Source: Candidatus Latescibacterota bacterium
Lineage (GTDB): Bacteria; Latescibacterota; UBA2968; UBA8231
Assembly (NCBI GenBank): GCA_965197905.1
Contig: CBDAOB010000003.1
Span: 736,001 to 800,000, forward strand
Length of the DNA stretch: 64,000 bases
Direction: 5' to 3'
Shown here: in pieces, positions 23,009-50,759 of the stretch
How the letters are laid out: the number at the start of each line of letters is the position of its first letter
Numbering within the stretch: position 1 is the stretch's first letter
The notes under the pieces: model-generated
What the model was told of the DNA's origin: nothing
The model's input: the letters and a program-made list of their open reading frames with translations, nothing else
Database searches by the model: none
Made by a program: the position numbers and the translations under genes

Positions 23009-24754
23009 CTAAAGGAAAGAACTGCGCACCAGTCCCTCCTGCTCTTCCCATTGATGCAGGATGGAGCGGGACCGACGCAAATAGTGACGATAGCGGTCGT
23101 CGAGCAAGTTTTTCGACCTGTTTCCCAAGCGACCTCCAATCAGCGCATTGTATTTTCCCCGGGCTTGGGTAACGCGCCGGCCCTTTGGGTTGACGGCGAT
23201 CGTCATCAAGCGCTGTGAGTTGCCACTCCCGTCGGAGATCTGTAGGGAAAACACCGCCTTGGAGCCGCGCCGGCAGGTGTGCACGTAGGTCCGCACACAG
23301 TGATGCATCGCTTTGCCTTCTGCTACCAGCTCGTGGGTAGTGGTCACCTCCGAGATGGACCATGTGAGCATCTTGTCGGTCTCTTCGTCGTGCTCTGTGA
23401 CGGAAAGCTCACCCACGCCACAGGGTTGCCATTGATTCGAGGGGACCCGTTGATCTCGCACCAACCTCGCATGCCATTGTTCAACGTAGCGCAACAGCTT
23501 GTCCACGCTGCGACTCTTCATCGAGAGATTCGCTTGGAGAGGATCTTGTAACTCTATGCGCCCACCCGGCAAAACCACCTCCTGTCGTTCGAATTTCTGA
23601 TCCTGTATGTAGTCGACGATCGGTCCGATCCATTCGGGATCTAGCATGGGGTGTAACGTCAGCCAATGAATGAAAGTGGACCAGAAGGCCTCGTTCTCGA
23701 GTGATTCTCCAAGGCGGGTGGCGACCACTGCTTCGACCAATTCCTCGGATCCGTCCTGGCCAACGATCTGACCATAGCGCAACGCTTCGAACAGGGAGTA
23801 GCGATCCGGGGCAAGCAGAAACTCATGAGCCATTCGTTTTGTGAGGTTCACCGCGAGATCGGGGGCCGTCCGAATGTTGGCCCCCATACCCACGTGTATG
23901 AACCATCTCTGCTGCCGGTCCGTCTCCAGGGCATCCTCGGTCGGATCATGAAAGAAGGCGGTGTCGAAAAAGGCGGGCACGTGATACCTGGCCAGCAGAT
24001 GGCGGGCCAACGATCCGAACTGAAGGCGGGGATTGTGTCTCTCCGGTCGCCAATGGTCGGGACCGCGCAGCCAGTCCGCCTGCCGTCTGGCAAGAGCGGC
24101 CAGGCCGTCGATCCAGGTATTGCCCGTCCGGGCGCCAAAGCGGGTGATGGCTGGCGTTGAAACATCGAACAGATCCGCCCGCGACCGATCGACATCGAGC
24201 AGTAGGTCGCGAAACGCCTGGCGAACCGGCTGTTGATCGGACAACTGCCCGGCAATCTCCGCGATGCGGGCCATGTACTCGGGTCGCAGATCGTCCGTGG
24301 CAACCGAACCTTCGAAAATCCCGGTGATCGTATCCCGGGGTCGTCGGGTAATCCGGCGCACCTTGCGCAGAACCGCCTGGCTGGTCAGGACGCGTACCAT
24401 GTCCAGCTCTTTGCGTCGTGGACGGTCCCCTTTGTGCAGCGCGTCACTCAAATTCTGCTCCCGACACCAAGCCTGATAGGCCTGCGTCGAACCCAATCCC
24501 AAAGCTTTTACGTGGGCAAGAACCGCTTTGTCCGCCGCCGCCGCTTTAGCATCGCGTTTAACTGCGGCGCGCTCAACCCGGCGATCTTGCCAGCTCTTGT
24601 TGAGGGCAGCCGTAAAACCGTGCTCACGACACCAGTATTGATATTGGGCGACCGTCTGTAGTCCCAGAGACTCGATGTGATCGGTCAGATGAGCATTGGC
24701 CCGTGCCTGAGCACCCCGGCGACGACGTTTCCTTTTTTCGTTGGTCTTTGGCAT
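23009..24754 (-). CDS. PcfJ-like domain protein (paralogue 2)
   Basis: ELVAEGKAMHHCVRTY...LMTIAV...VTQARGKYN. Start MPKTNEK chosen by analogy with paralogue 1. Confidence 0.75.
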   Translation of the reverse strand: MPKTNEKRKRRRRGAQARANAHLTDHIESLGLQTVAQYQYWCREHGFTAALNKSWQDRRVERAAVKRDAKAAAADKAVLAHVKALGLGSTQAYQAWCREQNLSDALHKGDRPRRKELDMVRVLTSQAVLRKVRRITRRPRDTITGIFEGSVATDDLRPEYMARIAEIAGQLSDQQPVRQAFRDLLLDVDRSRADLFDVSTPAITRFGARTGNTWIDGLAALARRQADWLRGPDHWRPERHNPRLQFGSLARHLLARYHVPAFFDTAFFHDPTEDALETDRQQRWFIHVGMGANIRTAPDLAVNLTKRMAHEFLLAPDRYSLFEALRYGQIVGQDGSEELVEAVVATRLGESLENEAFWSTFIHWLTLHPMLDPEWIGPIVDYIQDQKFERQEVVLPGGRIELQDPLQANLSMKSRSVDKLLRYVEQWHARLVRDQRVPSNQWQPCGVGELSVTEHDEETDKMLTWSISEVTTTHELVAEGKAMHHCVRTYVHTCRRGSKAVFSLQISDGSGNSQRLMTIAVNPKGRRVTQARGKYNALIGGRLGNRSKNLLDDRYRHYLRRSRSILHQWEEQEGLVRSSFL

Positions 24755-24911
24755 CGAAATCGTTGATGGCGGTGTCCAGTCAATCTGCCTCTTCCGCGTG
24801 GTCAATGTCAAGCAGTAGCCTGACCCTCGAAGTTGACCCGGCCTTCCTTTTCGGTTTGATTGAAAACACATCTTCGGCTGTCGGCATTCCTTTTTGCAAA
24901 CTTGGGAAACA

Positions 24912-25940
24912 ATGGTAGAGATTGATGATGATCGTGAGGGGGAAGAGCCCGATATTCCCGTATTGCAAAAGGTGGGTATCGTCATGGTGGCCCTAGGTGA
25001 GGAGGTCTCGGGCGAAGTCATGAAGCACCTCAGCGACTACGAAATCGAAGAGATCACTCAGGCGATCGCCTCCCTCAAGAACATCTCTACCGAGTTGATA
25101 GACCAGGTTCTCGACGAGTTTGAGCAACACTTGATGGCCGGCGAGTGGATAGCTCAGGGCGGCATGGACTTCGCGCGTGCCGCTTTGGAACGCGCCGTGG
25201 GACCGCGACGGGCGCAGGAAATCCTTGAACGGGTCGGCAGCAAGGTCTCCTCCGGGTTCTACATTCTCAAGAATGTCGCATCGGACCAGATCGCCCCGTT
25301 TATTTCCAACGAGCACCCTCAAACCATTGCCCTGATTCTATCTCAGCTGGATTTTGCCCAGAGCGCCGGAATCCTGGCGCAACTTGCGGAGCGCCTGCAG
25401 GCGGATGTCGCCTACCGCCTGGCAACAATGGAGAATATTACGCCCAACGTCATCAAGGAGATCGAAGAAGCCCTCGAACAGTCCTTGAAGGATATTCTTG
25501 GCGGCGATCAGGACGTAGGCGGGCCGAAGGTGGTCGCGGACATACTGAATCTAACCGGTTCCAGCGTGGAAAAGAGTGTTCTCGATCAGATGGATGGTCA
25601 GGATCCGGAAGTGGCCGAAGCCGTCCGCAACCTCATGTTCGTTTTTGCCGACATCGTCAAACTGACCGATCGCGAAATTCAGACTCTGCTGCGGGAAGTC
25701 GATCAGAAGGACCTGGTTATCGCCTTGAAGACTGCCGAGGACGAACTCAAGGACAAGGTGCTGGGCAACATGTCCGAGCGCGTGCGCACCTTCGTAAACG
25801 AAGAGATGGAATTCCTCGGGCCGATGCGTGTAAGCGAGGTCGAAGAGGTTCAACTGAGAGTAGTGCAACAGGTCCGTCAGTTGGAGGAACAAGGTCAGGT
25901 TACGATCGTCCGCGGCGACTCCGAGGATGAGTTCGTATAG
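24912..25940 (+). CDS. fliG: Flagellar motor switch protein FliG homologue (orphan)
   Basis: EHPQTIALILS, GGPKVVADILN, MFVFADI, NMSER, E..GP.R..EVEE. Confidence 0.9.
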   Translation: MVEIDDDREGEEPDIPVLQKVGIVMVALGEEVSGEVMKHLSDYEIEEITQAIASLKNISTELIDQVLDEFEQHLMAGEWIAQGGMDFARAALERAVGPRRAQEILERVGSKVSSGFYILKNVASDQIAPFISNEHPQTIALILSQLDFAQSAGILAQLAERLQADVAYRLATMENITPNVIKEIEEALEQSLKDILGGDQDVGGPKVVADILNLTGSSVEKSVLDQMDGQDPEVAEAVRNLMFVFADIVKLTDREIQTLLREVDQKDLVIALKTAEDELKDKVLGNMSERVRTFVNEEMEFLGPMRVSEVEEVQLRVVQQVRQLEEQGQVTIVRGDSEDEFV

Positions 25941-28227: not shown

Positions 28228-29151
28228 TCAGTCCGGCAAACAATCGAAGTTCTTAAAAATCCACAGCCGGCGCACGGTATTGACCCCCTGCCACTTCTTC
28301 TTCGCTGCTTCCCAGGCCTCGGGAAAGCTATCGCCCCAATTGTGCGCCGGCTCCCAACATCCGTTCTCTGCTTGTGCTTCGATTTCGAACGAGAGGTTTG
28401 CGGTGACCGCATCCTTGTGTTCGGAGAACAACCTGGAGTTTGGCGACGGAATTATCTCGAGGGGAGTGGTGCAGTAGGTGTGCCACTTGGTGGGATCCGT
28501 CTCGATGCTCCGATTCACGATTCCGGGAAGGTGTTTCTGCAACGCCTCCTCCAGAGAGCGGGGCAAAGATTCGACCTCGAACAGTCTGGTGTAACAAGCC
28601 AGATCGTGTACCTGCAGAGTTTCGATTGCAGGGAGACGATCGACTACGGCATCCAGCACCTCCTGCTGGATATCCGCGGTAGATCCGAAATTATACAGAT
28701 AGCCCAATACTTCGGGCCGTGGGTTATCTCGGTAGAAACTCCAGATCTCGTCGAAGTTTTCGGTATAGTGCCACCAGGGGGCGTGTGGTTTGCTGTTGTC
28801 GTGCGGCGTGATGAGCGGCCAGCTCTTGTACTTCTCAACGTAGGACTCAGCCAGAAAGTTCACGGCCTCCTGCGCCAGCTGGTGAGATTTGTCCAGCCCG
28901 AGTTCCATGAAGGTCTGCAGCGCGTGGGTGGTGCTGAGAACGTTCGGCTCGTTCGACCCGAAATCCGACTCGATGGCGCCGAATCCCCCATCCGCATGCC
29001 TGAACTCGGTCAACTCGTCAATAACCTGCTCGGGAGTTCCGCCTTCGAACAGAAACGAGAACTTCGCCTTCTCCAGGGGTCTGGCGTGCGCTTTGATGTA
29101 ACCGGCGGCCCTGTCGAACGCTTCGCGTGAAAACCGGGGCACCTTCGCCAT
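28228..29151 (-). CDS. Conserved hypothetical protein (prenyltransferase/terpene-cyclase-like barrel)
   Basis: ARPLE, DGGFG.IESD, PHAPWW, QAENGCWEP..WG. Confidence 0.65.
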   Translation of the reverse strand: MAKVPRFSREAFDRAAGYIKAHARPLEKAKFSFLFEGGTPEQVIDELTEFRHADGGFGAIESDFGSNEPNVLSTTHALQTFMELGLDKSHQLAQEAVNFLAESYVEKYKSWPLITPHDNSKPHAPWWHYTENFDEIWSFYRDNPRPEVLGYLYNFGSTADIQQEVLDAVVDRLPAIETLQVHDLACYTRLFEVESLPRSLEEALQKHLPGIVNRSIETDPTKWHTYCTTPLEIIPSPNSRLFSEHKDAVTANLSFEIEAQAENGCWEPAHNWGDSFPEAWEAAKKKWQGVNTVRRLWIFKNFDCLPD

Positions 29152-29242
29152 GAGAATCTCCTCTCCCAACAATAAATCAACTGCCAAACGGTGGTTGGCA
29201 AATAATCATTACAACTTTCAAGCAGGTTCGCAATAGCAGACC

Positions 29243-29308
29243 TTGCCTTTGAGTCTCCTTAAGCGTATTATTCAACAATCTGGTTTTCTTTAGCGAACTA
29301 AATGGAGG
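29243..29308 (+). promoter_or_regulatory. Sigma70-type promoter and RBS of the fused RNAP gene
   Basis: TTGCCT (29243-48), 17 nt, TATTAT (29266-71). GGAGG at 29304-08; ATG at 29313. Confidence 0.65.
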
Positions 29309-29312
29309 TTCT

Positions 29313-32300
29313 ATGACTGTCGGGGAATGTGCAACCCATTCAAAGAGATCCGCAACGCTGCGGTTGGGTCCGCTGATGCGCTCGACCGCTGAGGAATTCG
29401 GATCAGCGTTGCGTCGAACCTTGATGCGCTTGCCGGGTCTGGCCGCACGCGCCGTGAAAATGGAGGCGGCTCACGAATTCTCTTTGCTCCCGGGGGTCGT
29501 CGAGGACGCGCTAGAGATCGTGGAGAATCTAAGATTGATCCAGTTCCGGGGTGGCGATGGACCGCACTACGTGACCATCGATGTGGAGGGGCCGGCTGCA
29601 GTGACCGGATCGGATCTGGCTGGTCCCGGACTGCAGGTGGTGAACCCGAATCAACCGATTGCCACGGTGAATCACGGTGGACGCCTCGAAATGAAGGTTG
29701 AGGTGGCTCTCTCGTTGGATCGGGAATCAGGCCGAGACCGTCGCACCGGGGGTTTCCTGGAGGTCGGCGGCGTCTCTCATCCCGTTACTCGGGTGCAGCT
29801 ACACGTGGAAGAGCGCGATAAAGGGGCGTTCTTGAGCTTGAGCGTGGCGACCAACGGAAGCGTCGAGCCCCGGGTGGCCATCGATCAGGCGGCAACTCTG
29901 CTAGCGTCAGTAGCGACAGGCGAAAGGACTCGGGCCCTCTGCCGCCAGGTTTTGAACGCAAAGACGTTGTCGGAGCCGGCGACTAAGGCGCCACCTCCGG
30001 TCCCGACAGCCCGTGACCTGAGCAAGATGCCACCGGGCATCGAAGTTCCAGACCTTACGGAGTTGTGCCACAGTTCGTTCGAATCCTTTGCACAGCGCGG
30101 GGTGGCACCCAGCCGGCGCCGAAACTCGGGGTTGCAACGATTGCTAAAAGAGGCCTTCGCGGTACAGGAGGAAGCCGAGTTCTCCAGCTACACCCTTAGC
30201 GAGCCGCACTCTGAACCCTCGGAATGTGTGAAATACGGTACGAGCTACCAAGCCGAGTTGACGGTTCGTCACAAGCGGAATGGTGCCCATACAGCCGAAG
30301 ATACGGTTGTGGGTCACCTACCCGTGATGACGGCTCGCGGAACCTTCGTGGTCTCTGGTGTGGAGAAGGTGGCGATGGGCGAGTTGGTGGACGCCTGCGC
30401 GAACAGGACCACGCGGGAGAACGATCTGGCCGAGCGCCGTATAAGGCTCGTAGGAGAGCAGCTGTTCGAGGCATTGGCCGGTGCTTTCGACAGTGCCACC
30501 GAGCAGGAGAATGAACTCCGATTTCCTTACTTCGCTGAAACCGTTAGTAGTTTTTTTACCGCAAATCCGTTGGTGCAACGAGCGGAGACCACAAACCCGC
30601 TGGCGCTCTTGACCCAGCTGCGCCGGGTGGTGCAAACGGATGTGGGTCGGCAACGGGGCTATCTGCCGCGCCAGATTCACCGGTCCCATTGGGGCCGTCT
30701 CTGCAGCATCGATACGCCGGAAGGGGAGCGGATCGGTCTGAATCTGACCGTGGCGGTCCTCGCAGGGGTAGACGAGGATGGCTTCCTTACCGCACCGTAC
30801 CGGCGTCGAACGGACGGCGATCTGGCGTATCTCAACGCCGCCGAGCAGGCGGCCACGACCGTCACCGACGGTTGCTGCTCGGATGGTGACCTGGTCGCCC
30901 GCTACGGCGGCAAGATTCTGGCGCTGAAAGCGGGCGAGATCGTGCGAACCGAGGAAGGTGATGTTGAGTACCTCACCACTCACTCGGCGCACACCCTGGG
31001 TCCTTCCGCCAGCCTCATTCCGTTTCTGGCCAACGACGATTCCAACCGTGCGTTGATGGGGAACAATATGCAAAAGCAGGCGCTGCCTCTGCTCCATCCT
31101 CAGGCTCCGATGGTGCGGACGGGAATGGAAGGCCGCGTCGCCACAGATGCGCGCGCCGCCGTTCTGGCGCCCGCTGAAGGGGTGGTTGAGCGGGTGTCGG
31201 CGGAAGAGATCGTCGTCCGCGGTCACGGCGAACACTCCTTTGGACTGGAAGGGTTTGTTCCCTCTGCCCTCAGTACCTGTCAACGGCAACGACCGTTGGT
31301 TCGACGCGGCCAGAGTGTCACCGCAGGTCAGGTCCTGGCGGACGGTCCTGCCACCGACCATGGAGATCTGGCGCTGGGTCGCAACGTCCTGGTCGGTTTC
31401 CTGCCGTGGGATGGGTTCAATTTCGAGGATGCTGTCGTTGTAAGTCAGCGACTGGTTGACGAAGAAGCGTTCACCTCAGTCAAGGTGAAGGAATACATCG
31501 ACGTGATCCGGAATACCGACACAGATCGCCTCTCCATCGGGATCGGCCACTTGCCACGCAGCACCGGTGACAACCTGTCTCCGTCCGGAATCGTACGCGA
31601 GGGAGCGTCGGTCGCGGGAGGCGATATTTTGGTCGCCAAGTCGACCTCCGGAGCGGAGAGGATCGACCGCTCGCTGCGCCTGCCGTCCGGGCATGCGGGC
31701 ACCGTAATCGGAGTCGATCATTTCATCGCGGACCAGGGCGACCCGTTGGCCGCGAATGTCGAGCAGCTCATCAAGATAAGGGTGGCTGTGCGCCGGCCAC
31801 TGAAGGTTGGGGACAAGCTGGCCAGTCGTCATGGCGCCAAGGGAGTGGTGGGATTGGTTCTTCCCGAAGACGAGATGCCGGTGTTGCCCGACGGAAGGGC
31901 GCTGGAGATGTTGGTGAGCCCGCTGGGATTGCCCAGCCGCATGAACTTCGGCCAGATCCTCGAAGCCCACACCGGCTTTGCTGCCCACGCGCTCAATTGC
32001 ACCGTCGAATCGCCCGGTTTCAACGGTGCCCTTGCCGAGGAGGTGGGTGGCCTCCTGGAAGAGGCCGGCCTGCCGCGCAGCGGCATGTTGCGGCTGCGCG
32101 ACGGGCGCACCGGACAGCTCTTCGAGCGCGAGACGACCGTCGGGTATATCTACTACATGAAGCTGCACCACATGGCCGAGGATCTGATCAAAACGAGGCC
32201 CGCCGGCCCAATGACCACGGAGGAAAACCCCGAGAAACCGCAGGGATATCGGCTGGGCATCATGGAAACCTGGGCTCTGCAAGCTCACGGCGCCGCACAC

Positions 32301-35066
32301 ATGTTGCGCGAGATGTCGACGGTACAAGGCGGGCAGGAGCAGGAGGTGACCTACGACGCCCTCGTGCACGGGGTTGATTTTCCGCCGCCCCAGCCGACCC
32401 AATCTATTGCCAGGCTTGCCAGGCAGCTGCGCGGGCTCTGCCTCGATCTCCAGCTGCACGACGCCGGCGGTCATCAAATCAGTCTGAAGGAAGCGGGAGA
32501 AGCGCCGGATCTGGATGCGATCGAGATGGCATCCGTAGAATTCGCAACATCGCAGACCGTCGATAGTTGGGGAATCGTAACCGAACTTCCGGACGCGACG
32601 GCAGTGGAAGCGTTTTTGCAGGGCGATGCCCGAGACGGTGTAGGTCTGATCCCGTTGGCCTGTCCGGTACTGCACCCCTGGCGAACCATGTTGCCCGCGG
32701 ATACGACGCCATCGGAGATTGCCAAGCTTCCAGTGCTGGCGCGATCCCTGAGGAATGGGCGCGCCCACGATTCGCTCTATCTGGCGCTGGCAGCCGTGAA
32801 CGACATCGTGCGGTCGGATGATACCTCCGACCACGAAATCCGCACGGCACTCCAGGAGGCGGTGGACGAGCTTTTCGGCGACGGCGGCGGCGGCGATGGC
32901 TTGAATCGATTGCTCTACGGGAAGCGTGGTTGGTTTGCCGCCGCAATGACCGGAACTAGGGTGGACTACTCGGGCAAGGCGGTCATCGCGCCAGGACCGA
33001 ACCTGCTCCAGGATGAATGCGGACTGCCGCGAAGAATGGCACGTTCTTTGTTCGCGCCATTCGTGGTCGGAGCCTTGTTGCGAGCCGGGAAAGCGAAGTC
33101 GGAAGAGGAGGCGCGCCGCATGATACGAGACGGGCGCGCCGAACGAGAGCTGGACGAGATTGCCTCGACGAAGCTGGTACTGCTACACCGGGCGCCGGTC
33201 CTGCACCGCTGGGGCATTCAAGCGTTCAAGCCGGTGTTGACCGAGGAGGAGGTTCTGCGGCTGCACCCGCTGACCAACGTGACCTTCAACGCCGACTTCG
33301 ACGGCGATGCGCTGGAGGTGTTCCTCCCTCTATCCGCTATCGCACAGCGCGAAGCGCAGGAGATGAGACCCACCAACAACCAGTTGGGCTCGGCCGACGG
33401 CACCTACATCCACGGCTTGAGCCAGGAGATGGTATTCGGTTGTTATTACGCGACCGCCGCGACCGCCACGGAGAAGCCGGTAATTGACCTCGCCAGCACG
33501 GACGCGGTGGCGGCCACCTTCGACCGCGGAGACGTGCGCATTCATGACCCGGTGAGAGTAATGGATGGGAGCTCACGCATTTCATCCGTGGGTCGCGTTT
33601 TGTTCGGTCAGCTGCTGCCGGATGGGTTGGAATGGACGGACGGGCAAGTCGACAAACGGGCACTGAAGGACCTGCTCGATCGGTGTTGGCACCAGTTGGG
33701 CCCCCCGTCTGCTGCCGAGCTGGCGAACGCAATGATGGTTTTCGGCTTTCGCATGGCAACCCGGTCAGGCGTATCGATCGGCAAAGACACCTATTCTCAG
33801 TTCAGCGGCTACGACGAGATGCTCGCCGCCGCGTGGCAGCGTGCGGACGAGCTCGCGGCCACCGACAACGACGAGCAAAGGATCGTCGATCACTGGATGG
33901 AAGTGCGTGATCGAATGACCGTGCAGGCGTTGGAAGAGCATGCCGCCATAGAGGACGGTCTCAATCCGACCCACATGATGGTTGTATCCGGAGCGCGGGG
34001 CAATTCGAATCAGCTGCTCCAGCAGATCGCCATGCGTGGTCTTTTTGTGCGCCAGGACGGTTCCCTTTATTCGATCCCATGTACGACCACCAACGTGCGG
34101 GGACAAAACCCGCTCGAGTTCCTTGCGGGGGTTGAAGGAGCACGCCGAGGTCTGGCGGATTGCACCTTGAAGGCTGCGCGCTCAGGATATCTCTTCAAGA
34201 GGATCGTCAGCTCGGTACAAGACGTGTTGATCACCGAGGAGAACTGCGGCACCGATGCCAGCCTGGAAAAACGGCCGCTCCGTGTGCGCCAGCGGGAAGT
34301 GCAAACGCTTGAGAACCGAATCGCCGGGCGGTTTGCCGCCGCCGATATCCTGTTTCCGGGAAGTAAAGCTCCGATCGTGGCGGCCGGGAACCTGATTGGC
34401 AGAGTTGAAGCTGCCGAGATTGGAGAAAGTGCCGTCGAGTCGGTTCTCGTTCGCTCGCCCATAACATGCGAATCCTCACGGGGCGTCTGCAGCAAATGTT
34501 ATGGGGTCGAGCTGAGCCGCTGGTCGCCGGCGACGGCCCACCTGCCGGTCGGTATCATCGCTGCCCAATCACTGGGCGAGCCGCTGACGCAGCTCACCAT
34601 GCGGTCGTTCACCTTGTCGATGCAGGGACAGCCTCCATCTGCAAACATCATCGCCAGCCTACCTGGACTGGAGGATTTGTTCGAGGCGGGCAAAAGACCC
34701 GGGAAGGAAGCATCGGAACTGCGAACCGCTCTGGTCGAGATGCTGGAGAAGGAAGGTTCGGGGTGCGCAGGAGCCTACCTTCTGGACGCGGTGCTCCTGC
34801 ACTATCGCAACATGGGAGTTCCCCTCGACGACAGACACCTGGAGATCGTCATCCGTCGGATGGTCCGTAGCGACGGGATCGACAGTGGACCGACTATCAG
34901 GGGCGTGACTGAAGTTGCGCGTCAGGGCAACGACTTCATGACGGCGGCGGTTTCCTTCGATGGAGTAGCCGCGCTGGCGCGGGCGGCCGCCAGCAGCCAA
35001 CGGATGCACCTGGATGGTGTGAGCAGCAGCACCGCTTTCGGCAAGCTTATGCCTGCAAGGGTCTAG
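29313..35066 (+). CDS. Single-chain minimal RNA polymerase: alpha-NTD + reduced beta + reduced beta' fusion (1917 aa)
   Basis: Alpha: ALRRTL, HEFSLLPGVVED, VVNPNQPIAT, TNGSVEP. Beta: TPEG..IGL, LIPFL..DD.NRALMG.NMQ.QA, NFED, GDKLASRHGAKG, PSRMN.GQ, KLHH. Beta': RVDYSG, RAPVLHR, NADFDGD, SGARG, GARRGLAD, GEPLTQLTMR. Confidence 0.95.
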   Translation: MTVGECATHSKRSATLRLGPLMRSTAEEFGSALRRTLMRLPGLAARAVKMEAAHEFSLLPGVVEDALEIVENLRLIQFRGGDGPHYVTIDVEGPAAVTGSDLAGPGLQVVNPNQPIATVNHGGRLEMKVEVALSLDRESGRDRRTGGFLEVGGVSHPVTRVQLHVEERDKGAFLSLSVATNGSVEPRVAIDQAATLLASVATGERTRALCRQVLNAKTLSEPATKAPPPVPTARDLSKMPPGIEVPDLTELCHSSFESFAQRGVAPSRRRNSGLQRLLKEAFAVQEEAEFSSYTLSEPHSEPSECVKYGTSYQAELTVRHKRNGAHTAEDTVVGHLPVMTARGTFVVSGVEKVAMGELVDACANRTTRENDLAERRIRLVGEQLFEALAGAFDSATEQENELRFPYFAETVSSFFTANPLVQRAETTNPLALLTQLRRVVQTDVGRQRGYLPRQIHRSHWGRLCSIDTPEGERIGLNLTVAVLAGVDEDGFLTAPYRRRTDGDLAYLNAAEQAATTVTDGCCSDGDLVARYGGKILALKAGEIVRTEEGDVEYLTTHSAHTLGPSASLIPFLANDDSNRALMGNNMQKQALPLLHPQAPMVRTGMEGRVATDARAAVLAPAEGVVERVSAEEIVVRGHGEHSFGLEGFVPSALSTCQRQRPLVRRGQSVTAGQVLADGPATDHGDLALGRNVLVGFLPWDGFNFEDAVVVSQRLVDEEAFTSVKVKEYIDVIRNTDTDRLSIGIGHLPRSTGDNLSPSGIVREGASVAGGDILVAKSTSGAERIDRSLRLPSGHAGTVIGVDHFIADQGDPLAANVEQLIKIRVAVRRPLKVGDKLASRHGAKGVVGLVLPEDEMPVLPDGRALEMLVSPLGLPSRMNFGQILEAHTGFAAHALNCTVESPGFNGALAEEVGGLLEEAGLPRSGMLRLRDGRTGQLFERETTVGYIYYMKLHHMAEDLIKTRPAGPMTTEENPEKPQGYRLGIMETWALQAHGAAHMLREMSTVQGGQEQEVTYDALVHGVDFPPPQPTQSIARLARQLRGLCLDLQLHDAGGHQISLKEAGEAPDLDAIEMASVEFATSQTVDSWGIVTELPDATAVEAFLQGDARDGVGLIPLACPVLHPWRTMLPADTTPSEIAKLPVLARSLRNGRAHDSLYLALAAVNDIVRSDDTSDHEIRTALQEAVDELFGDGGGGDGLNRLLYGKRGWFAAAMTGTRVDYSGKAVIAPGPNLLQDECGLPRRMARSLFAPFVVGALLRAGKAKSEEEARRMIRDGRAERELDEIASTKLVLLHRAPVLHRWGIQAFKPVLTEEEVLRLHPLTNVTFNADFDGDALEVFLPLSAIAQREAQEMRPTNNQLGSADGTYIHGLSQEMVFGCYYATAATATEKPVIDLASTDAVAATFDRGDVRIHDPVRVMDGSSRISSVGRVLFGQLLPDGLEWTDGQVDKRALKDLLDRCWHQLGPPSAAELANAMMVFGFRMATRSGVSIGKDTYSQFSGYDEMLAAAWQRADELAATDNDEQRIVDHWMEVRDRMTVQALEEHAAIEDGLNPTHMMVVSGARGNSNQLLQQIAMRGLFVRQDGSLYSIPCTTTNVRGQNPLEFLAGVEGARRGLADCTLKAARSGYLFKRIVSSVQDVLITEENCGTDASLEKRPLRVRQREVQTLENRIAGRFAAADILFPGSKAPIVAAGNLIGRVEAAEIGESAVESVLVRSPITCESSRGVCSKCYGVELSRWSPATAHLPVGIIAAQSLGEPLTQLTMRSFTLSMQGQPPSANIIASLPGLEDLFEAGKRPGKEASELRTALVEMLEKEGSGCAGAYLLDAVLLHYRNMGVPLDDRHLEIVIRRMVRSDGIDSGPTIRGVTEVARQGNDFMTAAVSFDGVAALARAAASSQRMHLDGVSSSTAFGKLMPARV

Positions 35067-35111
35067 GTCGAACGAGTTCGCGCAGACGGCACGCCCAATC
35101 CCAAACCATGC

Positions 35112-36086
35112 TCAAAAAGGAGACTTGACCCCCAGCTCCATGGCGATGCGCTCCAACGCCACCTGATGTTCGGGACCCACGGGAATCCCATGCCGGCGGT
35201 TCTCCTGCTCCCACCGCCATTCGGACCCCCCGGCCACTTCTGCCCCGTCTGACCCGGGCAAAGGCTCCAGAGTTCGGACCTCCGCGACGTACCGGTCCAC
35301 CGCCTCGCACAACTCGTCCAGCGGCATGAAGTGGCTGATATCGACGACCAGAATGAAGGATCCCTGGTTCGATTCCCATGGAGAATCTGGCGCTCGGAGG
35401 TCAGGCTGGTAGATCCCCGGGAATACCCCGCCCAACAGTTGAACGATGTTGCTCAGTCCCATGGCTTTAAAGAACGGAAACGGGTTTTCGACACATGAGG
35501 ATTCGTCGAAAGAGAGGAAGCTACTCCCCATGTCTAGAACTACCGGAGGTTGATTCTTCGTGGGGAACGCAACGCTTACGGGTGAATTGGTCACCGTGCT
35601 AAATATCGATTCTCCCGCTTCCCGGGAGGTCCGATGGGAGGACACCGCCATGCCGATGCAACCTGCCGACAGAGCCAAGCGAGTATAGTTACCGGCTGCC
35701 CCGAAATGATAGTGGTTTCGCGTTGTCAGCGCGGCAACGCCACTCGCCCGTGCTTTCGTTATCGCCCGCTGCGTACCCCGATAGCAAGGGAAATACCCCA
35801 ATCCTCCATCCCCGTCGATGACCAGGGCACCTGTTGACTCGCTGACGTCTCGAAGCTCGGGACGCGGATTCACGGCCCCTGTGGCTATCTTGCGAACATA
35901 ATCGGGAATCTGCAGCGTTCCGTGGCTGAACACACAGCGAAGATCGTTCGCTACGAGCAACTCACTCATCAGCAGCGCATCCTCGTGTGTGGTGCCGGCG
36001 CGCTCGAAAAGTTGAGCGGTAAAGCCATCCATGACCTCGCGCGGTATTCGAACGCCGGTTTCAGGAGGCCGATTCTGTTTCGCCAC
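35112..36086 (-). CDS. Ldh_2 family (type 2 malate/L-lactate dehydrogenase-like) oxidoreductase
   Basis: DLR...SHG, DGDGGLG, N.YHFGA, TNSP, LDM. Confidence 0.85.
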   Translation of the reverse strand: MAKQNRPPETGVRIPREVMDGFTAQLFERAGTTHEDALLMSELLVANDLRCVFSHGTLQIPDYVRKIATGAVNPRPELRDVSESTGALVIDGDGGLGYFPCYRGTQRAITKARASGVAALTTRNHYHFGAAGNYTRLALSAGCIGMAVSSHRTSREAGESIFSTVTNSPVSVAFPTKNQPPVVLDMGSSFLSFDESSCVENPFPFFKAMGLSNIVQLLGGVFPGIYQPDLRAPDSPWESNQGSFILVVDISHFMPLDELCEAVDRYVAEVRTLEPLPGSDGAEVAGGSEWRWEQENRRHGIPVGPEHQVALERIAMELGVKSPF

Positions 36087-41677: not shown

Positions 41678-44600
41678 TCATTTTACCAACAGCAAGCGGC
41701 TCGTTCTCACATCGCGACCGGTCGATAACTGATACATGTAGATACCCGTTGCCACCGCTCGTCCGGCGTCGTCGGTACCGTCCCAGGTTATAGAGTGGTG
41801 GCCGGACCTTTCCGCCGCGGCGACGATGTGTCGAATCCGTTGCCCCGTCACGTTGTAGATGGAGAATTCGACGGGACTCGCCTCGGGAAGATGGTAGTTT
41901 ATTACGGTTTGCGCGTTGAACGGATTCGGAAAGTTCGGGAAGAGCGTCAAGACCTCGGGTAGCGCTTGTCCATCGGCCGCTATCGACATAGGCAGCTCGG
42001 GATACGACACTTGCAGTTGCCGGTTTGCCTTCAGGTCGGTGCGGATGCTCTCGCGCCCATCCGGCCAGACGATGCGCAACGTGTCAACTCGAGTCCCGGC
42101 GCCCAAGCCGAAGTGAATCTCGAGAGGCGCCTGGCTGCCGTATCCGAATCCGGGATGCAGCTCTTTGTACTGTCGCCCTTCCTGCGTAACCAGTAAGATC
42201 TGGGCGCCCAGTGCGTCTCGATTACCGCCGATCCCGATGAGGTCCAGCTGCAGCCAGCGGCTCTCTTCCAACTCGCTGCGATACAAACGACTCGACACCG
42301 CGTCGGCAACCAGCAGATCTTGATCGCCATCTCCGTCGAAATCGGCAACGCTGAGGCCGCGCCCGGCCGATTCCTTCTCGAGGCCGGAAAAACCACCCAG
42401 CGATCTCCACCCGTCGGAACCGTTGTTGTACAACTGGTCTCCGCCGTTTGCAGAGCCCACTCCCGTAGTGATCAGATCGAGATCGCCGTCGTTGTCGGTA
42501 TCGACGAAAGCGGCGCCGGCACACGAGGTTCCCAGCTTCCCCGGTCTCTCCTCAGTGACCCAGTTGAAACCCGTTCCGTCCAGATTCTTGAACAGCCGAT
42601 TGTCTGACGTTTCCCCGGTGGTGAAAAGGTCGACAAATCCATCCCCGTCGTAGTCGCCGAAGACACCGGCCACGTCGTCGTTGGAAAACGGCACTCCCAA
42701 TTCCTCGCCGACCTCGGTAAACTGCCCGGTGTCATTCCGGTAGAGCCGGCTTGGACCGTTCCTGTTCGCCACCAGAACGTCAGCATCGCCATCGCGATCG
42801 AAGTCGCCGAAAGACAGACCGCGACCGTCTCCGGTATCGTTCAATCCCTTCTGTGCTGCCATATCGACAAAAGCTGTCCCGTCGTTGCGAAACAATCGAT
42901 TGGTATCCGGGCTGGCGTTTACCAGGAACAGATCCAGATCGCCATCGGCATCGGCATCCCAGAAACCGGCGCTGCGGCCGGAACCATCATCTCCCAATGA
43001 ACCGCCTTCACCGCCGACAAACTGCGTGGTTACGTCCGTGAACTGGGAATCTTCGTTGCGCAACAACCGATTGGCCTGGCCCTGGCGGACGAGATACAGA
43101 TCCAGATCGCCGTCGCCGTCGTAATCGCCCACGGCGAACCCGCGACCCACACCCTCGTCTGCAAGACCTACCTCTGCATCGACCAGACGAAATGCATCGC
43201 CGTCGTTGCGCAACAGCTGATCCTCATCTCCCTGTCGCACGAGCAGAAAATCGAGATCGTTGTCGCCGTCAAAGTCGAAGAATCCGGCGCCGTTACTGTT
43301 GTTCAGATCCGCTTCGATCTCCACCGTCGAATAGGTAACCGGCACCTCCACCAGTTCGAGGGGCCGCGGATCGAGAAAGGTCGCCAAACTCTCGAATGAC
43401 GTCGATATACCGAATTGCAGTTCATAATTCCCACCTGCTAGCCCTGAGACCGACGGAAATTCGATCTCTCTGTCGGTAAATGGCACCAGCGGCGGCTGCT
43501 GTTGTTGGTAAGAAGCTACCACTCGGCCGTCCCGCAAAATCCGGTATTCCACCGGGAAGGGCTGGGACTTTCCATTACCACCGTTGGATACCAGAAGTCG
43601 AGGAACTACATCGCTCGCGGCCGCCGCCGACTCGGGAGCCAACACCGATTTGATCTCCAGACGCGGTTTCACTTCAGCTTCCACATCTCCCATGAGGAAG
43701 GTGATCTGATCGCCGAGGAAGCGCTGTCGGCTTTCCGACAACGTCCGCGGAAGATCAAGACCGACGAATATGGTGCGAAAGCGACCGGCATCGAATCGCA
43801 CCGCGGCGACGCGCCCCAACGTGTCCTGCAAAATCGATTCCGTGCCGTCGTTAGGCCGGACAGAGGCGAAGTTTATGCTGCCGTCGGCCCGATCCCCTGT
43901 CACAGACTCGAACGCACCGAAACCTGCGCGGGTTAGCTGCGGTGCAATCCCCAGGATATTGCTTCGGAATTCGCCTCCAGTTGGAGAATACGCCATGTAC
44001 GGAGTCGCCAGGAGTATCCTCCCTCCCTGGTGTGCGAACTCCTCGACGAAGTTTTGTTCTAATTCGTTGATTCTCGGCATCAGCCATATCACGAATTTAC
44101 CCGCGCCGATGTAGTGCCGTAGGAGGAGGTCGTAGAGTGATTTATCGGATAGATCCGAACTCTTGTTCAACACGTTCGCTTCCAAACCCCTTTTTTCCAG
44201 GATCGAGCGGAGGTCGTCGACTAGCGGGGCACCCTTTTTTAGATGTTTGTCGATGATCAGAACGGGACTCCACCGGGTGAAGTTCACCGCTTCCACGGTC
44301 AGTAGTCGGGACCCCATGAGCCGGCGTCCGTTTTTGTCGCGCACGCGAGCCACGATCTTGTAGTTGCCGGGCGCCGGGGGATTGAACTTGATTTGGAACA
44401 GGCGGTGATCTTTGTCCTCGCTTCGTACTAGAGGAAGCACGAGCCCGCCCGGGGCACCGCCTCCTCGGCGAGAAAAGGCGGATCCACGCACCAGCAGCTC
44501 GACCGATTCCACTGCCGCCGTCGTCGTCACCTGTAGCAAGATTGAATCGCCGTGCAGGACGAGAGCCCCATCATTGCGAATGATTGTCCCTGGAATCTCC

Positions 44601-48709: not shown

Positions 48710-48838
48710 TTTGTACTCCGTCTGTTTGCGGAACACAGTGTCTTGGGGAGACCTGAGGTTCAACGGTCGCTCATCCACAACGCGGATGGCGGTGGGACAG
48801 GAGAAAAGAGTCGTGGGGGAAGTTCGAGTATATCCAAT

Positions 48839-49027: not shown

Positions 49028-49897
49028 ATGAACTTGATTACCGTGACAGAGAGATTCCCGACGCAAGAATCCTGCATTGCTCATCTGGAGCGGATACGCT
49101 TCGGCGATGAGCCCTTTTGCCCCTTGTGCGGCACGGTCGGGGAATGCGCCCGCAAGAAGCAGGGGAATGTAATCGGGCGTTGGAACTGTCACGCTTGCAA
49201 ATCCAGCTTCAATGTCTTATCCCAGACCATGTTTCAAGGCACGCATCTTCCCTTGCAAAAGTGGTTCTGCGCCATCGCCCTGATCGTGAACGCCAAGAAA
49301 AGCCTGTCCAGTTGCCAGCTCGGGCGTGACTTGAACCTGAATCAGCGGTCCGCCTGGTACATGCAACAGCGCATCCGGGCTGAAATGGCTACCAAGCAGG
49401 GAAGAATCAGGTTAACTGGACTCATCGAAGCCGACGAGACCTACGTCGGCGGACGCCCCAGGAAGCGCAACAGGCGCGACGACGACAAACCCAACCTCAG
49501 AGGACGGGGAACGCGCAAGACCGCGGTTATCGGCGCTGTGGAGCGCTCAGGGAAGGTTGTGGCTCAGGTCGCCGACGATCTCTCCGCTAAGGGCGTGCTC
49601 GAGTTTATCAAACGTGCCATCAATCCTGACGCCTCGACGTTGGTCACGGACGAATATGGGGCCTACAACGTAGTGCGGCGGATCATGGATCACTGCGTGA
49701 TTCAGCATTCCAAGCGTTATGTTGATGGCACGATTCACACGAACACGATCGAAGGCGTGTGGTCTTTGCTCAAGCGGGCGTGGTATGGATCGCATCATCA
49801 CTACACGCCGCTTTACGTGGCCGAGGCTTGTTTCAAGTACAATCACCGCGACGACGACAACGCCTTCGGTTCTTTCCTACAAGGGTGCTTCAAGTAA
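49028..49897 (+). CDS. IS1595-family DDE transposase
   Basis: Zn ribbon CPLC..CHAC, EADETYVGG, VTDE, HTNTIEGVWSLLKR. Confidence 0.95.
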   Translation: MNLITVTERFPTQESCIAHLERIRFGDEPFCPLCGTVGECARKKQGNVIGRWNCHACKSSFNVLSQTMFQGTHLPLQKWFCAIALIVNAKKSLSSCQLGRDLNLNQRSAWYMQQRIRAEMATKQGRIRLTGLIEADETYVGGRPRKRNRRDDDKPNLRGRGTRKTAVIGAVERSGKVVAQVADDLSAKGVLEFIKRAINPDASTLVTDEYGAYNVVRRIMDHCVIQHSKRYVDGTIHTNTIEGVWSLLKRAWYGSHHHYTPLYVAEACFKYNHRDDDNAFGSFLQGCFK

Positions 49898-49983: not shown

Positions 49984-50422
49984 TTAATAAGAGAAGGTAA
50001 AATGACCGTCACATGACACCGTTAAAACGCCTCGTTTTAAAACGTCTTGGCCTAAAAGAACTCCATACTTAGCATTTGAACCAGGATTGAAATGTATAGC
50101 TTGAACCAACATAAGTTGTAATTTTGCTCCATTCGGATCTTGTTCGTCTTCAAACGCGAATCCAACCAGAACGTTATAAGCGTTCATGGTTACAGCCCGC
50201 GTTATAAGCGTTCATGGTTACAGCCCGCTCAGAGTTTTGAATATCTACTTGCCCGATTGGTTCTAAGTTTAGAGCTTCAACAACTGACGGTGATATGCAT
50301 GTGTATGGGGCTCCAGTGTCAACTAATGCGGTGCAAGGATGGATATTATCTTCATCGACAGCTATAGCAACGTCACATGTAATGCCAACTGCCCAGTCAA
50401 ACCGAGATACTACCACGGACAT
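49984..50422 (-). pseudogene. Retropepsin-like aspartyl protease split by a 28-bp tandem duplication
   Basis: ALVDTGA and LLGQDVL lie in two ORFs. Removing one repeat copy gives 411 nt in one frame. Confidence 0.8.
50173..50228. repeat. 28-bp perfect tandem duplication
   Basis: GTTATAAGCGTTCATGGTTACAGCCCGC occurs twice. Confidence 0.95.
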
Positions 50423-50654: not shown

Positions 50655-50759
50655 GTGAGTACCCTCGTGGCTTTTAGTGGGTGCTACACTGAAAACCTAG
50701 TCGAATGGTGTATACGCTATAATACGCGCATTTGAGCGTATTATCAAGAATTATTCAGT

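What the first reader, a model, noticed from the sequence alone, without database searches (positions are those of the whole stretch)
29313..35066. Single-polypeptide alpha-beta-beta' minimal RNA polymerase
Seen: one stop-free 5754-nt ORF reads in order as an RpoA N-terminal domain (aa ~10-200), a short linker, RpoB (aa ~235-1045) and RpoC (aa ~1070-1917), with conserved blocks in canonical order. Established: housekeeping alpha, beta and beta' total about 3000 aa and are encoded in ribosomal-protein operons. Beta-beta' fusions occur in Helicobacter and Wolbachia, and single-chain two-barrel RNAPs such as YonO and crAssphage gp66 are far more distant. I know of no alpha-beta-beta' triple fusion. 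Inference: this is a specialised second RNAP derived from the cellular enzyme and pared down to its catalytic core.
Basis: partly seen in the sequence, partly recalled or inferred. Interest (0 to 1): 0.97.

Follow-up and report, generated by a model that had tools for sequence, protein, structure and literature searches.

The report
One-chain alpha-beta-beta' RNA polymerase
A bacterium that already has a normal RNA polymerase carries an extra gene in which the alpha, beta and beta-prime subunits are joined into one trimmed protein, a layout I could not find described, and it may be a self-contained second transcription enzyme.

Summary
Window 29313-35066 (+) is one 1917-aa ORF. HMMs read it, in order, as RpoA N-terminal domain (aa 8-199), RpoB (236-1051) and RpoC (1074-1915).

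- It is not an assembly artefact. Contigs from three studies bridge both junctions. A same-genus genome has an intact 83%-identical copy in the same neighbourhood. Fourteen other 90%-identity clusters of 1919-2003 aa share the architecture.
- dN/dS is 0.22, and the catalytic residues are invariant across 15 family members.
- The genome keeps normal rpoA, rpoB and rpoC. The fusion was found in 4 of 168 genomes of the phylum.
- Alignment to E. coli shows these parts lost or shortened: beta lobe, beta flap tip, beta' zinc-binding domain, lid, rudder, jaw. The clamp-helix arginines are changed and the rifampicin pocket is altered.

Best reading: an accessory, probably active, single-chain RNA polymerase of cellular type that cannot dock sigma in the canonical way. 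Its template, its initiation mode, its biological role and the source of a second alpha are unknown.

Longer triple fusions also exist in metagenomes.

The parts
29243..29271 (+). sigma70-like promoter candidate (TTGCCT-17-TATTAT) in the 125-bp gap upstream of the gene
   Evidence: Consensus scan, 9 of 12 matches. This is a consensus match only, not evidence of function.
29303..29307 (+). Shine-Dalgarno GGAGG, 5 nt before the ATG
   Evidence: Read directly from the sequence.
29313..35066 (+). Whole ORF, 1917 aa: single-chain alpha-NTD / beta / beta' RNA polymerase paralogue
   Evidence: An 83%-identical intact orthologue lies in G002. dN/dS is 0.22.
29334..29912 (+). alpha N-terminal domain module (aa 8-200), with no alpha CTD
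   Evidence: Pfam RNA_pol_L and RNA_pol_A_bac. rpoA models match 8-199. 31% identity to own RpoA 30-220. ALRR (aa 32-35) is kept.
29913..30017 (+). alpha-beta connector (aa 201-235), with a conserved 'ALCRAV'-type helix
   Evidence: The family consensus is conserved here. The AF2 model gives helix 204-214 and strands 217-220 and 232-235, with pLDDT 96/96/79/92 per 10-residue block. Contigs of 2 studies bridge it.
30018..32465 (+). beta module (aa 236-1051). It lacks the lobe (E. coli ~152-437), the flap tip (~888-909) and SI2 (~938-1037)
   Evidence: Alignment to E. coli and own RpoB; BLASTP; Pfam Rpb2_3/6/7.
30591..30632 (+). Rifampicin-pocket region (aa 427-440): E. coli D516->E, H526->Q, S531->V
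   Evidence: Alignment and positions. The link of these positions to rifampicin resistance is recalled knowledge.
31419..31430 (+). beta NFED (aa 703-706 = E. coli 811-814), active-site acidic pair
   Evidence: N703, E705 and D706 are invariant in 15 of 15 family members. Alignment.
31809..31844 (+). beta GDKLASRHGAKG (aa 833-844; E. coli K1065 and K1073 equivalents)
   Evidence: G833, D834, K835, R839, H840, G841, K843 and G844 are invariant. Alignment.
32466..32531 (+). beta-beta' joint (aa 1052-1073), poorly conserved
   Evidence: dN/dS of aa 1046-1100 is 0.29. Contigs of 3 studies bridge it.
32532..35063 (+). beta' module (aa 1074-1917). It starts with the beta' N-terminal strand. It lacks the zinc-binding domain (E. 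coli ~39-101) and ~117-235. Lid and rudder are shortened, there is no SI3, and the jaw is deleted
   Evidence: Alignment; BLASTP; Pfam Rpb1_2-5 with no Rpb1_1.
33288..33308 (+). NADFDGD (aa 1326-1332), catalytic Mg2+ triad
   Evidence: N1326, A1327, D1328, D1330, G1331 and D1332 are invariant in 15 of 15. Position.
34137..34208 (+). Bridge helix core (aa 1609-1632)
   Evidence: Alignment to E. coli 778-801. The model shows one long helix at aa 1600-1635.
34575..34691 (+). Minimal trigger loop (aa 1755-1793) without insertion. Met and Arg are kept, and the E. coli His936 position is Thr (Tyr in the family consensus)
   Evidence: pLDDT is below 50 here, as expected for a mobile loop.
34245..34505 (+). 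Second beta' zinc site: Cys 1645, 1719, 1726, 1729
   Evidence: All four Cys are invariant in 15 of 15. They align with the E. coli C814/C888/C895/C898 region (that numbering is recalled).

Best explanation
The ORF is a real, selected gene for an accessory RNA polymerase of the bacterial multisubunit type, in which one alpha N-terminal domain, a trimmed beta and a trimmed beta' are translated as one 1917-residue chain.

Shown:
- The architecture, its recurrence in independent genomes, and purifying selection on all three modules.
- A complete set of catalytic elements: both double-psi barrel motifs, bridge helix, short trigger loop, second zinc site.
- The presence of the normal rpoA, rpoB and rpoC elsewhere in the genome.

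Inferred:
- The protein folds like the cellular core and makes RNA by the usual two-metal mechanism.
- Covalent linkage replaces the alpha-dimer-driven assembly pathway, with the fused alpha sitting on beta as alpha-I does.
- The beta flap tip is deleted, the clamp-helix arginines are replaced, and the beta' zinc-binding domain, lid and rudder are gone or shortened. It therefore cannot form a canonical sigma holoenzyme. It must start either without a factor (ends, nicks, single-stranded or primed templates) or with an unknown factor.
- Loss of the lobe and jaw predicts a weaker grip on downstream duplex DNA.
- The changed rifampicin pocket predicts insensitivity to rifamycins.

Its cellular job is not known. 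It is dispensable for the lineage and evolves several times faster than rpoB.

The confidence of 0.62 is for the whole statement, including activity and the loss of canonical sigma docking. For the architecture and its reality alone I would give about 0.97.
For: - Domain order by Pfam and NCBIfam, and 30-45% identity to the genome's own subunits.
- Invariant NADFDGD, NFED, GDK..RHG.KG, DD.NRALMG and PSR.N, plus four zinc-site Cys, in 15 of 15 full-length members that are 45-83% identical.
- dN/dS against the G002 orthologue: 0.22 overall, alpha 0.33, beta 0.21, beta' 0.19, with only one 2-codon indel.
- Contigs bridge both junctions. Alpha-beta: X1 29202-30754, X6 29220-32171, X7 29220-30644. 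Beta-beta': X1 32111-33700, X3 29978-32933, X6 32434-32807. These come from 3 studies. The X6 variant has 101 substitutions in 2953 nt, and the only indels listed lie outside the ORF.
- 14 further 90%-identity clusters of 1919-2003 aa cover 99-100% of the query and carry the alpha domain.
- AF2 models: aa 1-1100 has pLDDT 87.7 and pTM 0.85; aa 620-1800 has pLDDT 85.3 and pTM 0.85. The best fold matches are bacterial beta and beta' chains, for example E. coli 8igr_J at rmsd 4.1 A over 701 columns.
- Canonical rpoA, rpoB and rpoC are present.
- The fusion is in 4 of 168 genomes of the phylum.
- Deletions and substitutions are mapped on E. coli.
Against: - No activity, expression or partner data exist. 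No RNA run was listed, so expression is simply unknown.
- The trigger-loop His is not conserved, which in E. coli slows catalysis (recalled).
- Only one alpha is present, whereas every characterised bacterial core has two. The enzyme may therefore need host alpha, or be incomplete alone.
- The loss of sigma docking is inferred from alignment and from recalled E. coli residue roles, not tested.
- The AF2 alignments contained canonical subunits, so the models largely restate homology. Foldseek compares single chains and cannot check how alpha sits on beta.
- No conserved neighbour gene points to a function.
Confidence: 0.62

Rival explanations
1. Alternative core that still lives off host parts. 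The chain recruits one host alpha (as alpha-II), omega and host sigma factors, and acts as a second core enzyme competing for the normal promoters, for example a drug- or inhibitor-resistant back-up.
For: - The alpha dimerisation helices stay conserved: A26, E27, R34, R39, A193 and A194 are invariant.
- The clamp helices and dock are present, though altered.
- The rifampicin pocket is changed at three positions.
- A subclade (P0018-P0022) lacks the fused alpha and starts exactly at the beta N-terminus, so alpha can be supplied in trans in relatives.
Against: - The flap-tip helix that holds sigma region 4 is deleted.
- The E. coli R275, R278 and R281 equivalents on the clamp helix are V, I and S.
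- The zinc-binding domain, lid and rudder are lost or shortened.
- The beta' chain ends at the 'IPA' motif, without the C-terminal tail.
Confidence: 0.15
2. Polymerase for an unconventional template. It copies single-stranded DNA or RNA (primer synthesis, RNA-templated RNA synthesis, or small-RNA production), as the two-barrel enzymes QDE-1 and YonO-like proteins do, rather than transcribing duplex genes.
For: The elements lost are those that hold the downstream duplex (lobe, jaw) and manage the upstream edge of the bubble and the RNA exit (lid, rudder, zinc-binding domain, flap tip). Fork loop 2 is 4 residues shorter. No sigma gene lies next to it.
Against: Longer relatives keep the lobe, and one (P0026) carries an alpha CTD, a DNA- and activator-binding domain, which points to promoter-directed duplex transcription in the wider group. 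It is no closer to RdRPs than any bacterial RNAP. There is no defence or mobile-element context.
Confidence: 0.15
3. Catalytically idle decoy or scaffold: an RNAP look-alike that soaks up inhibitors, phage anti-RNAP proteins or transcription factors.
For: It evolves faster than rpoB: 83% versus 97% identity in G002, and about 50% versus 80-82% in G157 and G023. The trigger-loop His is not conserved.
Against: All metal-binding and substrate-binding residues are invariant across members that are 45-83% identical, which a decoy would not need. No PADLOC hit.
Confidence: 0.05
4. Assembly chimera or decaying pseudogene.
For: The source is an uncultured-type assembly (5 contigs, 91% complete). X3 has a 43-nt gap in contig cover at 29935-29977.
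Against: Other runs bridge that spot. An intact orthologue sits in a one-contig genome. 14 full-length clusters come from other assemblies. dN/dS is 0.22.
Confidence: 0.01

Closest known systems
Housekeeping bacterial RNA polymerase core (alpha2-beta-beta'-omega)
   Same: The domain families appear in the same order. Catalytic motifs, bridge helix, trigger loop and second zinc site are all present. It is 30-45% identical to bacterial beta and beta', and the best sequence and fold matches in the PDB are bacterial beta and beta' chains.
   Different: It is one polypeptide with a single alpha NTD and no alpha CTD. It lacks the lobe, flap tip, beta' zinc-binding domain and jaw, and the lid and rudder are shortened. 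It scores far below every NCBIfam equivalog cut-off (for example rpoB 638.8 versus 801). It is accessory and patchy (4 of 168 genomes), it does not lie in the ribosomal-protein gene region where the canonical genes sit, and it evolves faster.
Natural beta-beta' fusions (NCBIfam PRK09603 and PRK14844; Helicobacter and Wolbachia by recall)
   Same: Beta is followed in frame by beta'. These two models give the best NCBIfam E-values.
   Different: Those are full-length housekeeping enzymes (models of 2839-2890 positions). The scores here are 790 and 742 bits against cut-offs of 5372 and 4632. They have no fused alpha, and in their genomes they are the only core (recalled).
Single-chain two-barrel RNAPs of phages and prophages (YonO, crAss-like gp66, P23-45 TMP-RNAP)
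   Same: One polypeptide carries both barrels, and many peripheral modules of the cellular enzyme are lost. The names come from the listings and abstracts, and YonO from the passages read in PMC7824862.
   Different: Those are very remote from cellular RNAPs and have no alpha. YonO-like enzymes also lack the SBHM flap insert, according to the PMC7824862 passages. This protein is plainly bacterial-type and has an alpha NTD. No phage record covers 80% or more of it, and the best true phage hits (Vibrio phages D69, D148, D181) are 24-25% identical. I made no direct comparison with a YonO sequence.
ECF-sigma-coupled miniature beta-beta' RNAP
   Same: It is an extra, trimmed, fused RNAP in the same genome.
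   Different: It is half the size (1019 aa), has no alpha, and sits directly behind an ECF sigma gene. It is common (66 of 168 genomes), and only short stretches are 27-42% identical to P0001. No sigma gene lies next to the triple fusion.
Unnamed longer alpha-beta-beta' fusions from metagenomes (P0025, P0026, P0029, P0141, P0230, P0247, P0264)
   Same: An N-terminal alpha NTD is followed by beta and beta' in one chain. P0025, P0026 and P0029 lie next to the short family on the beta' tree.
   Different: They are 1948-2437 aa. Six of the seven keep part of Rpb2_1 and/or Rpb2_2 (P0230 shows neither), and all keep part of Rpb1_1. P0026 ends in an alpha CTD, and P0141 has a second Rpb11-like dimerisation domain after the alpha NTD. 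Best local identity to P0001 is 35-39% for P0025, P0026 and P0029.

Membership tests
Multisubunit (two double-psi-barrel) RNA polymerases | beta' NADFDGD metal-binding triad | tested here: met
   aa 1326-1332, invariant in 15 of 15 members.
Multisubunit (two double-psi-barrel) RNA polymerases | beta barrel with the two catalytic lysines and the NFED acidic pair | tested here: met
   K835 and K843 in GDK..RHG.KG, and E705 and D706, are invariant.
Multisubunit (two double-psi-barrel) RNA polymerases | Bridge helix and trigger loop | tested here: met
   Aligned to E. coli. The model has a long helix at 1600-1635. The trigger loop is short and its His is replaced (T1767).
Housekeeping rpoB, rpoC and rpoA orthologues (NCBIfam equivalogs) | Score above the curated equivalog cut-off | tested here: not met
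   TIGR02013 638.8 versus 801.15; TIGR02386 486.3 versus 963.5; TIGR02027 93.7 versus 227.8. The true orthologues lie elsewhere in the genome.
Housekeeping bacterial core | Beta lobe, beta flap tip, beta' zinc-binding domain, beta' jaw | tested here: not met
   No Pfam Rpb2_1, Rpb2_2 or Rpb1_1 hit. Gaps opposite E. coli beta ~152-437 and ~888-909, and beta' ~39-101 and ~1150-1213.
Housekeeping bacterial core | Two alpha subunits (alpha dimer), each with a CTD | tested here: not met
   There is one alpha NTD and no PF03118. Only one other rpoA-like gene is in the genome, the canonical one. Whether a host alpha joins is not testable here.
Sigma70-family holoenzyme | Flap-tip helix (sigma region 4 dock) and basic clamp-helix surface (sigma region 2 dock) | tested here: not met
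   The flap tip is deleted. The E. coli R275, R278 and R281 positions are V, I and S. The roles of these residues are recalled, and binding itself was not tested.
Natural beta-beta' fusion (PRK09603 / PRK14844) | Full-length beta joined to full-length beta', acting as the only core of the genome | tested here: not met
   790 and 742 bits against cut-offs of 5372 and 4632. Separate rpoB and rpoC are present.
RpoA N-terminal domain | RNA_pol_L dimerisation fold with the RNA_pol_A_bac insert, and the conserved 'LRR' of helix 1 | tested here: met
   Pfam 20-197 and 52-138. ALRR lies at 32-35 with R34 invariant. That the second Arg is the beta-binding R45 of E. coli is recalled.
YonO-like single-chain RNAPs | No alpha-like module and only remote similarity to cellular beta and beta' | tested here: not met
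   An alpha NTD is present, and Pfam Rpb2_6 scores E 4.6e-79. No direct comparison with YonO was run.
ECF-sigma-coupled mini RNAP (scan notes) | About 950-1020 aa, with a sigma gene immediately upstream | tested here: not met
   It is 1917 aa, and the neighbours are a divergent 319-aa protein without Pfam hits and a convergent Ldh_2 gene.

The most novel reading that the evidence does not exclude
A cellular-type RNA polymerase that is complete in one polypeptide. It would need no alpha dimer, no omega and no sigma, with the conserved helix after the alpha domain taking the place of the second alpha. It would work on templates that the housekeeping enzyme does not use (single-stranded DNA, RNA or primed ends), for instance to make primers or small RNAs. 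The short form would be the end point of a fusion-then-reduction series, of which the longer metagenomic alpha-beta-beta'(-alphaCTD) proteins are earlier stages.
Probability: 0.2. Interest if true: 0.92.

Novelty: new variant of a known kind. Interest (0 to 1): 0.82.

Why it matters
All characterised cellular RNA polymerases are assembled from separate subunits on an alpha (or Rpb3/Rpb11) dimer platform. The known natural fusions join only beta and beta'. A conserved natural chain that also includes alpha, with only one copy of it, raises three questions:
- Is the alpha dimer needed once the subunits are tethered?
- Which peripheral modules does a cellular-type enzyme really need?
- How can such an enzyme start without the sigma docks?

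The practical interest is a roughly 210-kDa, single-gene, bacterial-type RNAP that is predicted to be insensitive to rifamycins. That would be a convenient object for structural work and for orthogonal expression systems.

This genome has three RNAP-like enzymes: the canonical one, the triple fusion, and a sigma-coupled mini enzyme. Together with the graded series of longer triple fusions in metagenomes, this suggests that paralogous 'second polymerases' are an overlooked layer of bacterial transcription.

Tried and rejected
- Genome-contig scan with the full family alignment. The patterns chosen were universal RNAP motifs.
- Metagenome scan with a family-specific 114-aa alignment. It returned 5 loci. 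Four are contigs of 2.6 kb or less, and one of 11.3 kb is only 28% identical. None was usable for neighbourhood analysis.
- Viral-contig scan: 53 pattern matches, none confirmed.
- tblastn against phages and plasmids: 64 and 100 records matched, and none covers 80% or more of the query. The top rows are ordinary rpoBC in records filed as phage or plasmid.
- Other phyla. 0 of 5 genomes reached through loci. 0 of 79 in the phylum of G168. 0 of 301 sampled in the phylum of G169 (only the two best candidates per genome were scored). This means not found in those searched, not absent.
- The look-up of sequencing runs: no RNA holder listed.
- Complex prediction of the fused alpha (aa 1-240) with host RpoA 1-240: no answer, score 0.07 against a mark of 0.32.
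- PADLOC on the protein and seven other proteins (three more from the window, two from G023 and the third RNAP): 0 hits.
- Conserved neighbours. G002 is syntenic throughout, but G023 shares no flanking gene apart from a 34%-identical Ldh_2 paralogue at a different position. The 166-aa ORF just upstream in G023 has no Pfam hit and looks like a spurious low-complexity frame.
- The 'alpha+beta only' protein P0024. Its last ~60 residues do not match the family, so it is probably a frameshifted full-length gene.
- P0004 (1613 aa) simply starts at residue 306 of the family.
Full report
**1. The observation**

Window 29313-35066 (+) is a single ATG-started ORF of 1917 codons. A GGAGG lies 5 nt upstream, and a sigma70-like hexamer pair sits at 29243-29271.

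- Pfam places an alpha N-terminal domain at aa 20-197 (RNA_pol_L with the RNA_pol_A_bac insert at 52-138).
- Beta domains: Rpb2_3 (423-485), Rpb2_6 (622-968, E 4.6e-79) and Rpb2_7 (978-1011).
- Beta' domains: Rpb1_2 to Rpb1_5 (1282-1769).
- NCBIfam rpoA, rpoB and rpoC models match 8-199, 407-1049 and 1098-1798, all far below their equivalog cut-offs.
- BLASTP against the genome's own subunits gives alpha 20-197 (31%), beta 236-1051 in three pieces (30-45%), and beta' 1097-1768 (35%) plus 1809-1915.

**2. It is real**

- Logan contigs of four runs from three studies were laid on 29100-35300.
  - The alpha-beta junction is bridged by X1 (29202-30754, 0 differences), X6 (29220-32171) and X7 (29220-30644).
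  - The beta-beta' junction is bridged by X1 (32111-33700), X3 (29978-32933) and X6 (32434-32807).
  - X3 has a 43-nt gap in cover at 29935-29977. X1 may be the assembly's own source.
  - The X6 variant differs at 101 of 2953 positions, and the only indels listed lie just outside the ORF (29311 and 35105).
- A one-contig genome of the same genus (G002) has an intact 1919-aa orthologue, 83% identical, with the same flanking genes over at least 24 kb.
- Nei-Gojobori dN/dS between the two is 0.22 (alpha 0.33, beta 0.21, beta' 0.19, the two joints 0.42 and 0.29), with a single 2-codon indel.
- The word-indexed protein search scored 7997 candidates and found 334 hits. Among the 120 listed, 14 clusters other than the window's own (P0003, P0005-P0017; 1919-2003 aa; 43-83% identity) cover 99-100% of the query and carry the alpha domain.
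- In an alignment of 15 full-length members, the NADFDGD triad, NFED, GDK..RHG.KG, DD.NRALMG, PSR.N and four zinc-site cysteines are invariant.

**3. Anatomy**

I aligned the protein with the genome's own RpoB and RpoC and with E. coli RpoB and RpoC taken from NC_000913. Names and ranges of E. coli structural elements are recalled. The gaps themselves are seen in the alignments.

Beta:
- Kept: the N-terminal protrusion part, fork-loop/rifampicin region, both barrel segments and the C-terminal clamp part.
- Lost: the whole lobe (E. coli ~152-437), the flap tip (~888-909) and SI2 (~938-1037).
- Fork loop 2 is 4 residues shorter.
- In the rifampicin pocket, E. coli D516, H526 and S531 are E, Q and V.

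Beta':
- It begins with the N-terminal strand (aa 1074-1086, like E. coli 20-38) and the 'PVxHxW' motif (1118-1124).
- Lost: the zinc-binding domain between them (~39-101), ~117-235, the jaw (~1150-1213) and the tail after the 'IPA' motif.
- The lid and rudder are shortened by about 10 and 11 residues.
- The clamp helices are present, but E. coli R275, R278 and R281 are V, I and S.
- The trigger loop has no insertion. It keeps Met and Arg, but Thr replaces His936 (Tyr in the family consensus).

Alpha:
- It keeps helix 1 with ALRR (32-35) and helix 3.
- There is no CTD.

Connector:
- The 35-residue alpha-beta connector is conserved ('ALCRAV').

**4. Models**

- AF2 on aa 1-1100 (88-row alignment) gave mean pLDDT 87.7 and pTM 0.85. 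The connector was modelled confidently: helix 204-214 and two short strands, with pLDDT 96/96/79/92 per block.
- AF2 on aa 620-1800 (75 rows) gave pLDDT 85.3 and pTM 0.85, a 36-residue bridge helix, and a low-confidence trigger loop.
- Foldseek's best matches are Thermus beta chains (E 3.6e-74, TM 0.64) and bacterial beta' chains (E. coli 8igr_J, rmsd 4.1 A over 701 columns, 33% identity).
- The alignments contained canonical subunits and Foldseek compares single chains. The models therefore confirm the folds but do not independently prove the inter-module geometry. The pTM values are the only indication of that.

**5. Context and distribution**

- The genome (6.69 Mb, 5 contigs, 91% complete) has canonical rpoB and rpoC at C5:2204329-2210875 and rpoA at C5:2186327-2187211. 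No other alpha-like gene was found.
- The fusion gene stands alone. A divergent 319-aa gene without Pfam hits lies upstream and a convergent Ldh_2 gene downstream. Further out are a rhodanese/MBL protein, DUF481, an orphan FliG, a PcfJ-like protein and TonB receptors. No sigma, integrase or phage gene is nearby, and there is no PADLOC hit.
- GC is 0.62 inside the gene, against 0.55-0.60 in most of the window.
- Among 168 genomes of the phylum, 4 have the gene (G000, G002, G157, G023). That is 3 of 49 genera, all in one family.
- The second same-genus genome, G001 (89% complete), shows none.
- In G023 the gene is split by contig ends, still begins with the alpha domain, and has different neighbours.
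- Canonical RpoB is 97, 91, 82 and 80% identical in G002, G001, G157 and G023, against 83, none, 50 and 49% for the fusion. The gene therefore evolves several-fold faster. The pattern fits vertical descent with losses but does not exclude transfer.
- One family member carries the public name of a Candidatus Latescibacteria MAG.
- The family was not found in one viral scan, in phage or plasmid collections, or in samples of two other phyla.

**6. The wider group**

- On a beta' tree (56 rows: every second canonical row dropped, quick search, LG+G4), the 23 short-family rows form one clade (SH-aLRT 100).
- The three long triple fusions P0025, P0026 and P0029 form another clade (100). It lies between the short family and 30 canonical rows (93). 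The program warned of long-branch attraction.
- Seven rows without a fused alpha are nested inside the short family. Five of them (P0018-P0022) start exactly at the beta N-terminus, so alpha was detached or lost there.
- A full phmmer pass of aa 1-420 over 1.84 billion representatives gave 9 hits at E <= 1e-30. Among the 150 listed, seven proteins of 1948-2309 aa carry the alpha match at their N-terminus. Pfam confirms alpha + beta + beta' in the six scanned here.
- Variants:
  - P0026 ends in an alpha CTD (2368-2425).
  - P0141 has a second, Rpb11-like dimerisation domain (234-301) after the alpha NTD.
  - Of the seven long forms scanned with Pfam (P0025, P0026, P0029, P0141, P0230, P0247, P0264), six keep part of Rpb2_1 and/or Rpb2_2 (P0230 shows neither) and all keep part of Rpb1_1.
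- Triple fusion is thus a small, graded, rare group, not a one-off.

**7. How it most likely works**

- Shown: a conserved chain with every catalytic element of a bacterial RNAP.
- Inferred: it makes RNA by the normal two-metal mechanism. Covalent tethering replaces alpha-dimer-driven assembly, with the fused alpha on beta like alpha-I.
- Inferred: the sigma region 4 dock (flap tip) is gone, the region 2 dock is altered, and the RNA-exit and bubble-edge elements are trimmed. Canonical holoenzyme formation, -35 recognition, and hairpin-dependent pausing and termination are therefore unlikely.
- Inferred: loss of the lobe and jaw predicts a weak hold on downstream duplex, and the pocket changes predict rifamycin insensitivity.
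- Open: the source of a second alpha (host alpha, none, or the conserved connector helix as a cap). The complex prediction gave no answer.
- The rivals are listed with their odds in the Rival explanations section: a host-dependent alternative core, an unconventional-template polymerase, a decoy, and an artefact.

**8. Comparison with what is known, and novelty**

- Closest relatives are the housekeeping bacterial core and the natural beta-beta' fusions. It fails their membership tests on scores, on deleted modules and on being accessory.
- It resembles YonO-type single-chain enzymes in principle, but it is far closer to cellular RNAP and has alpha.
- Seven full-text searches returned no paper describing a natural alpha-beta-beta' fusion. 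I saw only the listings and abstracts.
- I read passages of PMC13374769, where 'fused' and 'fusion' occur 0 times and the one 'single polypeptide' passage concerns vaccinia Rpo35. I also read passages of PMC7824862 on phage RNAPs, which do not mention an alpha fusion.
- Subscription-only papers are not covered, so prior description cannot be excluded.
- The scan's own notes hold no earlier triple fusion.

**9. Verdict**

This is a new architectural variant of a known enzyme class. Interest is high, and the function is open.

Noticed in passing
outside the window: G000:C5:903590-906646 (-), = L117:8588-11647; sigma gene at L117:11608-12204 (-): A third RNAP-like gene. It encodes a 1019-aa single chain with beta (Rpb2_3, Rpb2_6) and beta' (Rpb1_2) motifs and no alpha. 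An ECF sigma gene on the same strand directly precedes it and overlaps it by 40 nt. It was found in 66 of 168 genomes of the phylum, often as two adjacent pieces. Earlier notes of this scan describe the same sigma + mini-RNAP pair in other genomes.
   Followed up: partly
proteins P0025, P0026, P0029, P0141, P0230, P0247, P0264 (metagenomes): Longer alpha-beta-beta' triple fusions (1948-2437 aa) that keep more of beta and beta'. P0026 has an alpha CTD at its extreme C-terminus. P0141 has a second Rpb11-like dimerisation domain right after the alpha NTD, which could be a built-in pseudo alpha dimer.
   Followed up: partly
proteins P0018-P0022: A subclade of the short family has beta-beta' only and starts exactly at the beta N-terminus. 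It is nested among alpha-fused members on the tree. Whether a separate alpha gene lies upstream could not be read.
   Followed up: partly
window 24894-25940 (+): A complete FliG (N, M and C domains) stands alone between a PcfJ-like gene and a DUF481 gene. It is 98.8% identical in G002, the most conserved protein of the neighbourhood. None of the neighbouring ORFs scanned (window 14259-49897) had a hit to a flagellar family.
   Followed up: no
window 23009-25021 (-): A 670-aa protein with a PcfJ-like domain. In G002 the same gene is split into two ORFs of 257 and 383 aa.
   Followed up: no
window 41678-48778 (-): A 2366-aa secreted-type giant protein with an M6 peptidase domain, FG-GAP repeats, ASPIC/UnbV and a FlgD-Ig / Por-secretion-like tail. 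An IS1595-family transposase lies next to it at 49028-49897, and GC dips to 0.50 at 50001-52000.
   Followed up: no
window 28228-29187 (-): A 319-aa protein without Pfam or PADLOC hits, transcribed divergently from the RNAP gene across a 125-bp gap. It is 87% identical in G002. It is not present next to the RNAP gene in G023.
   Followed up: partly
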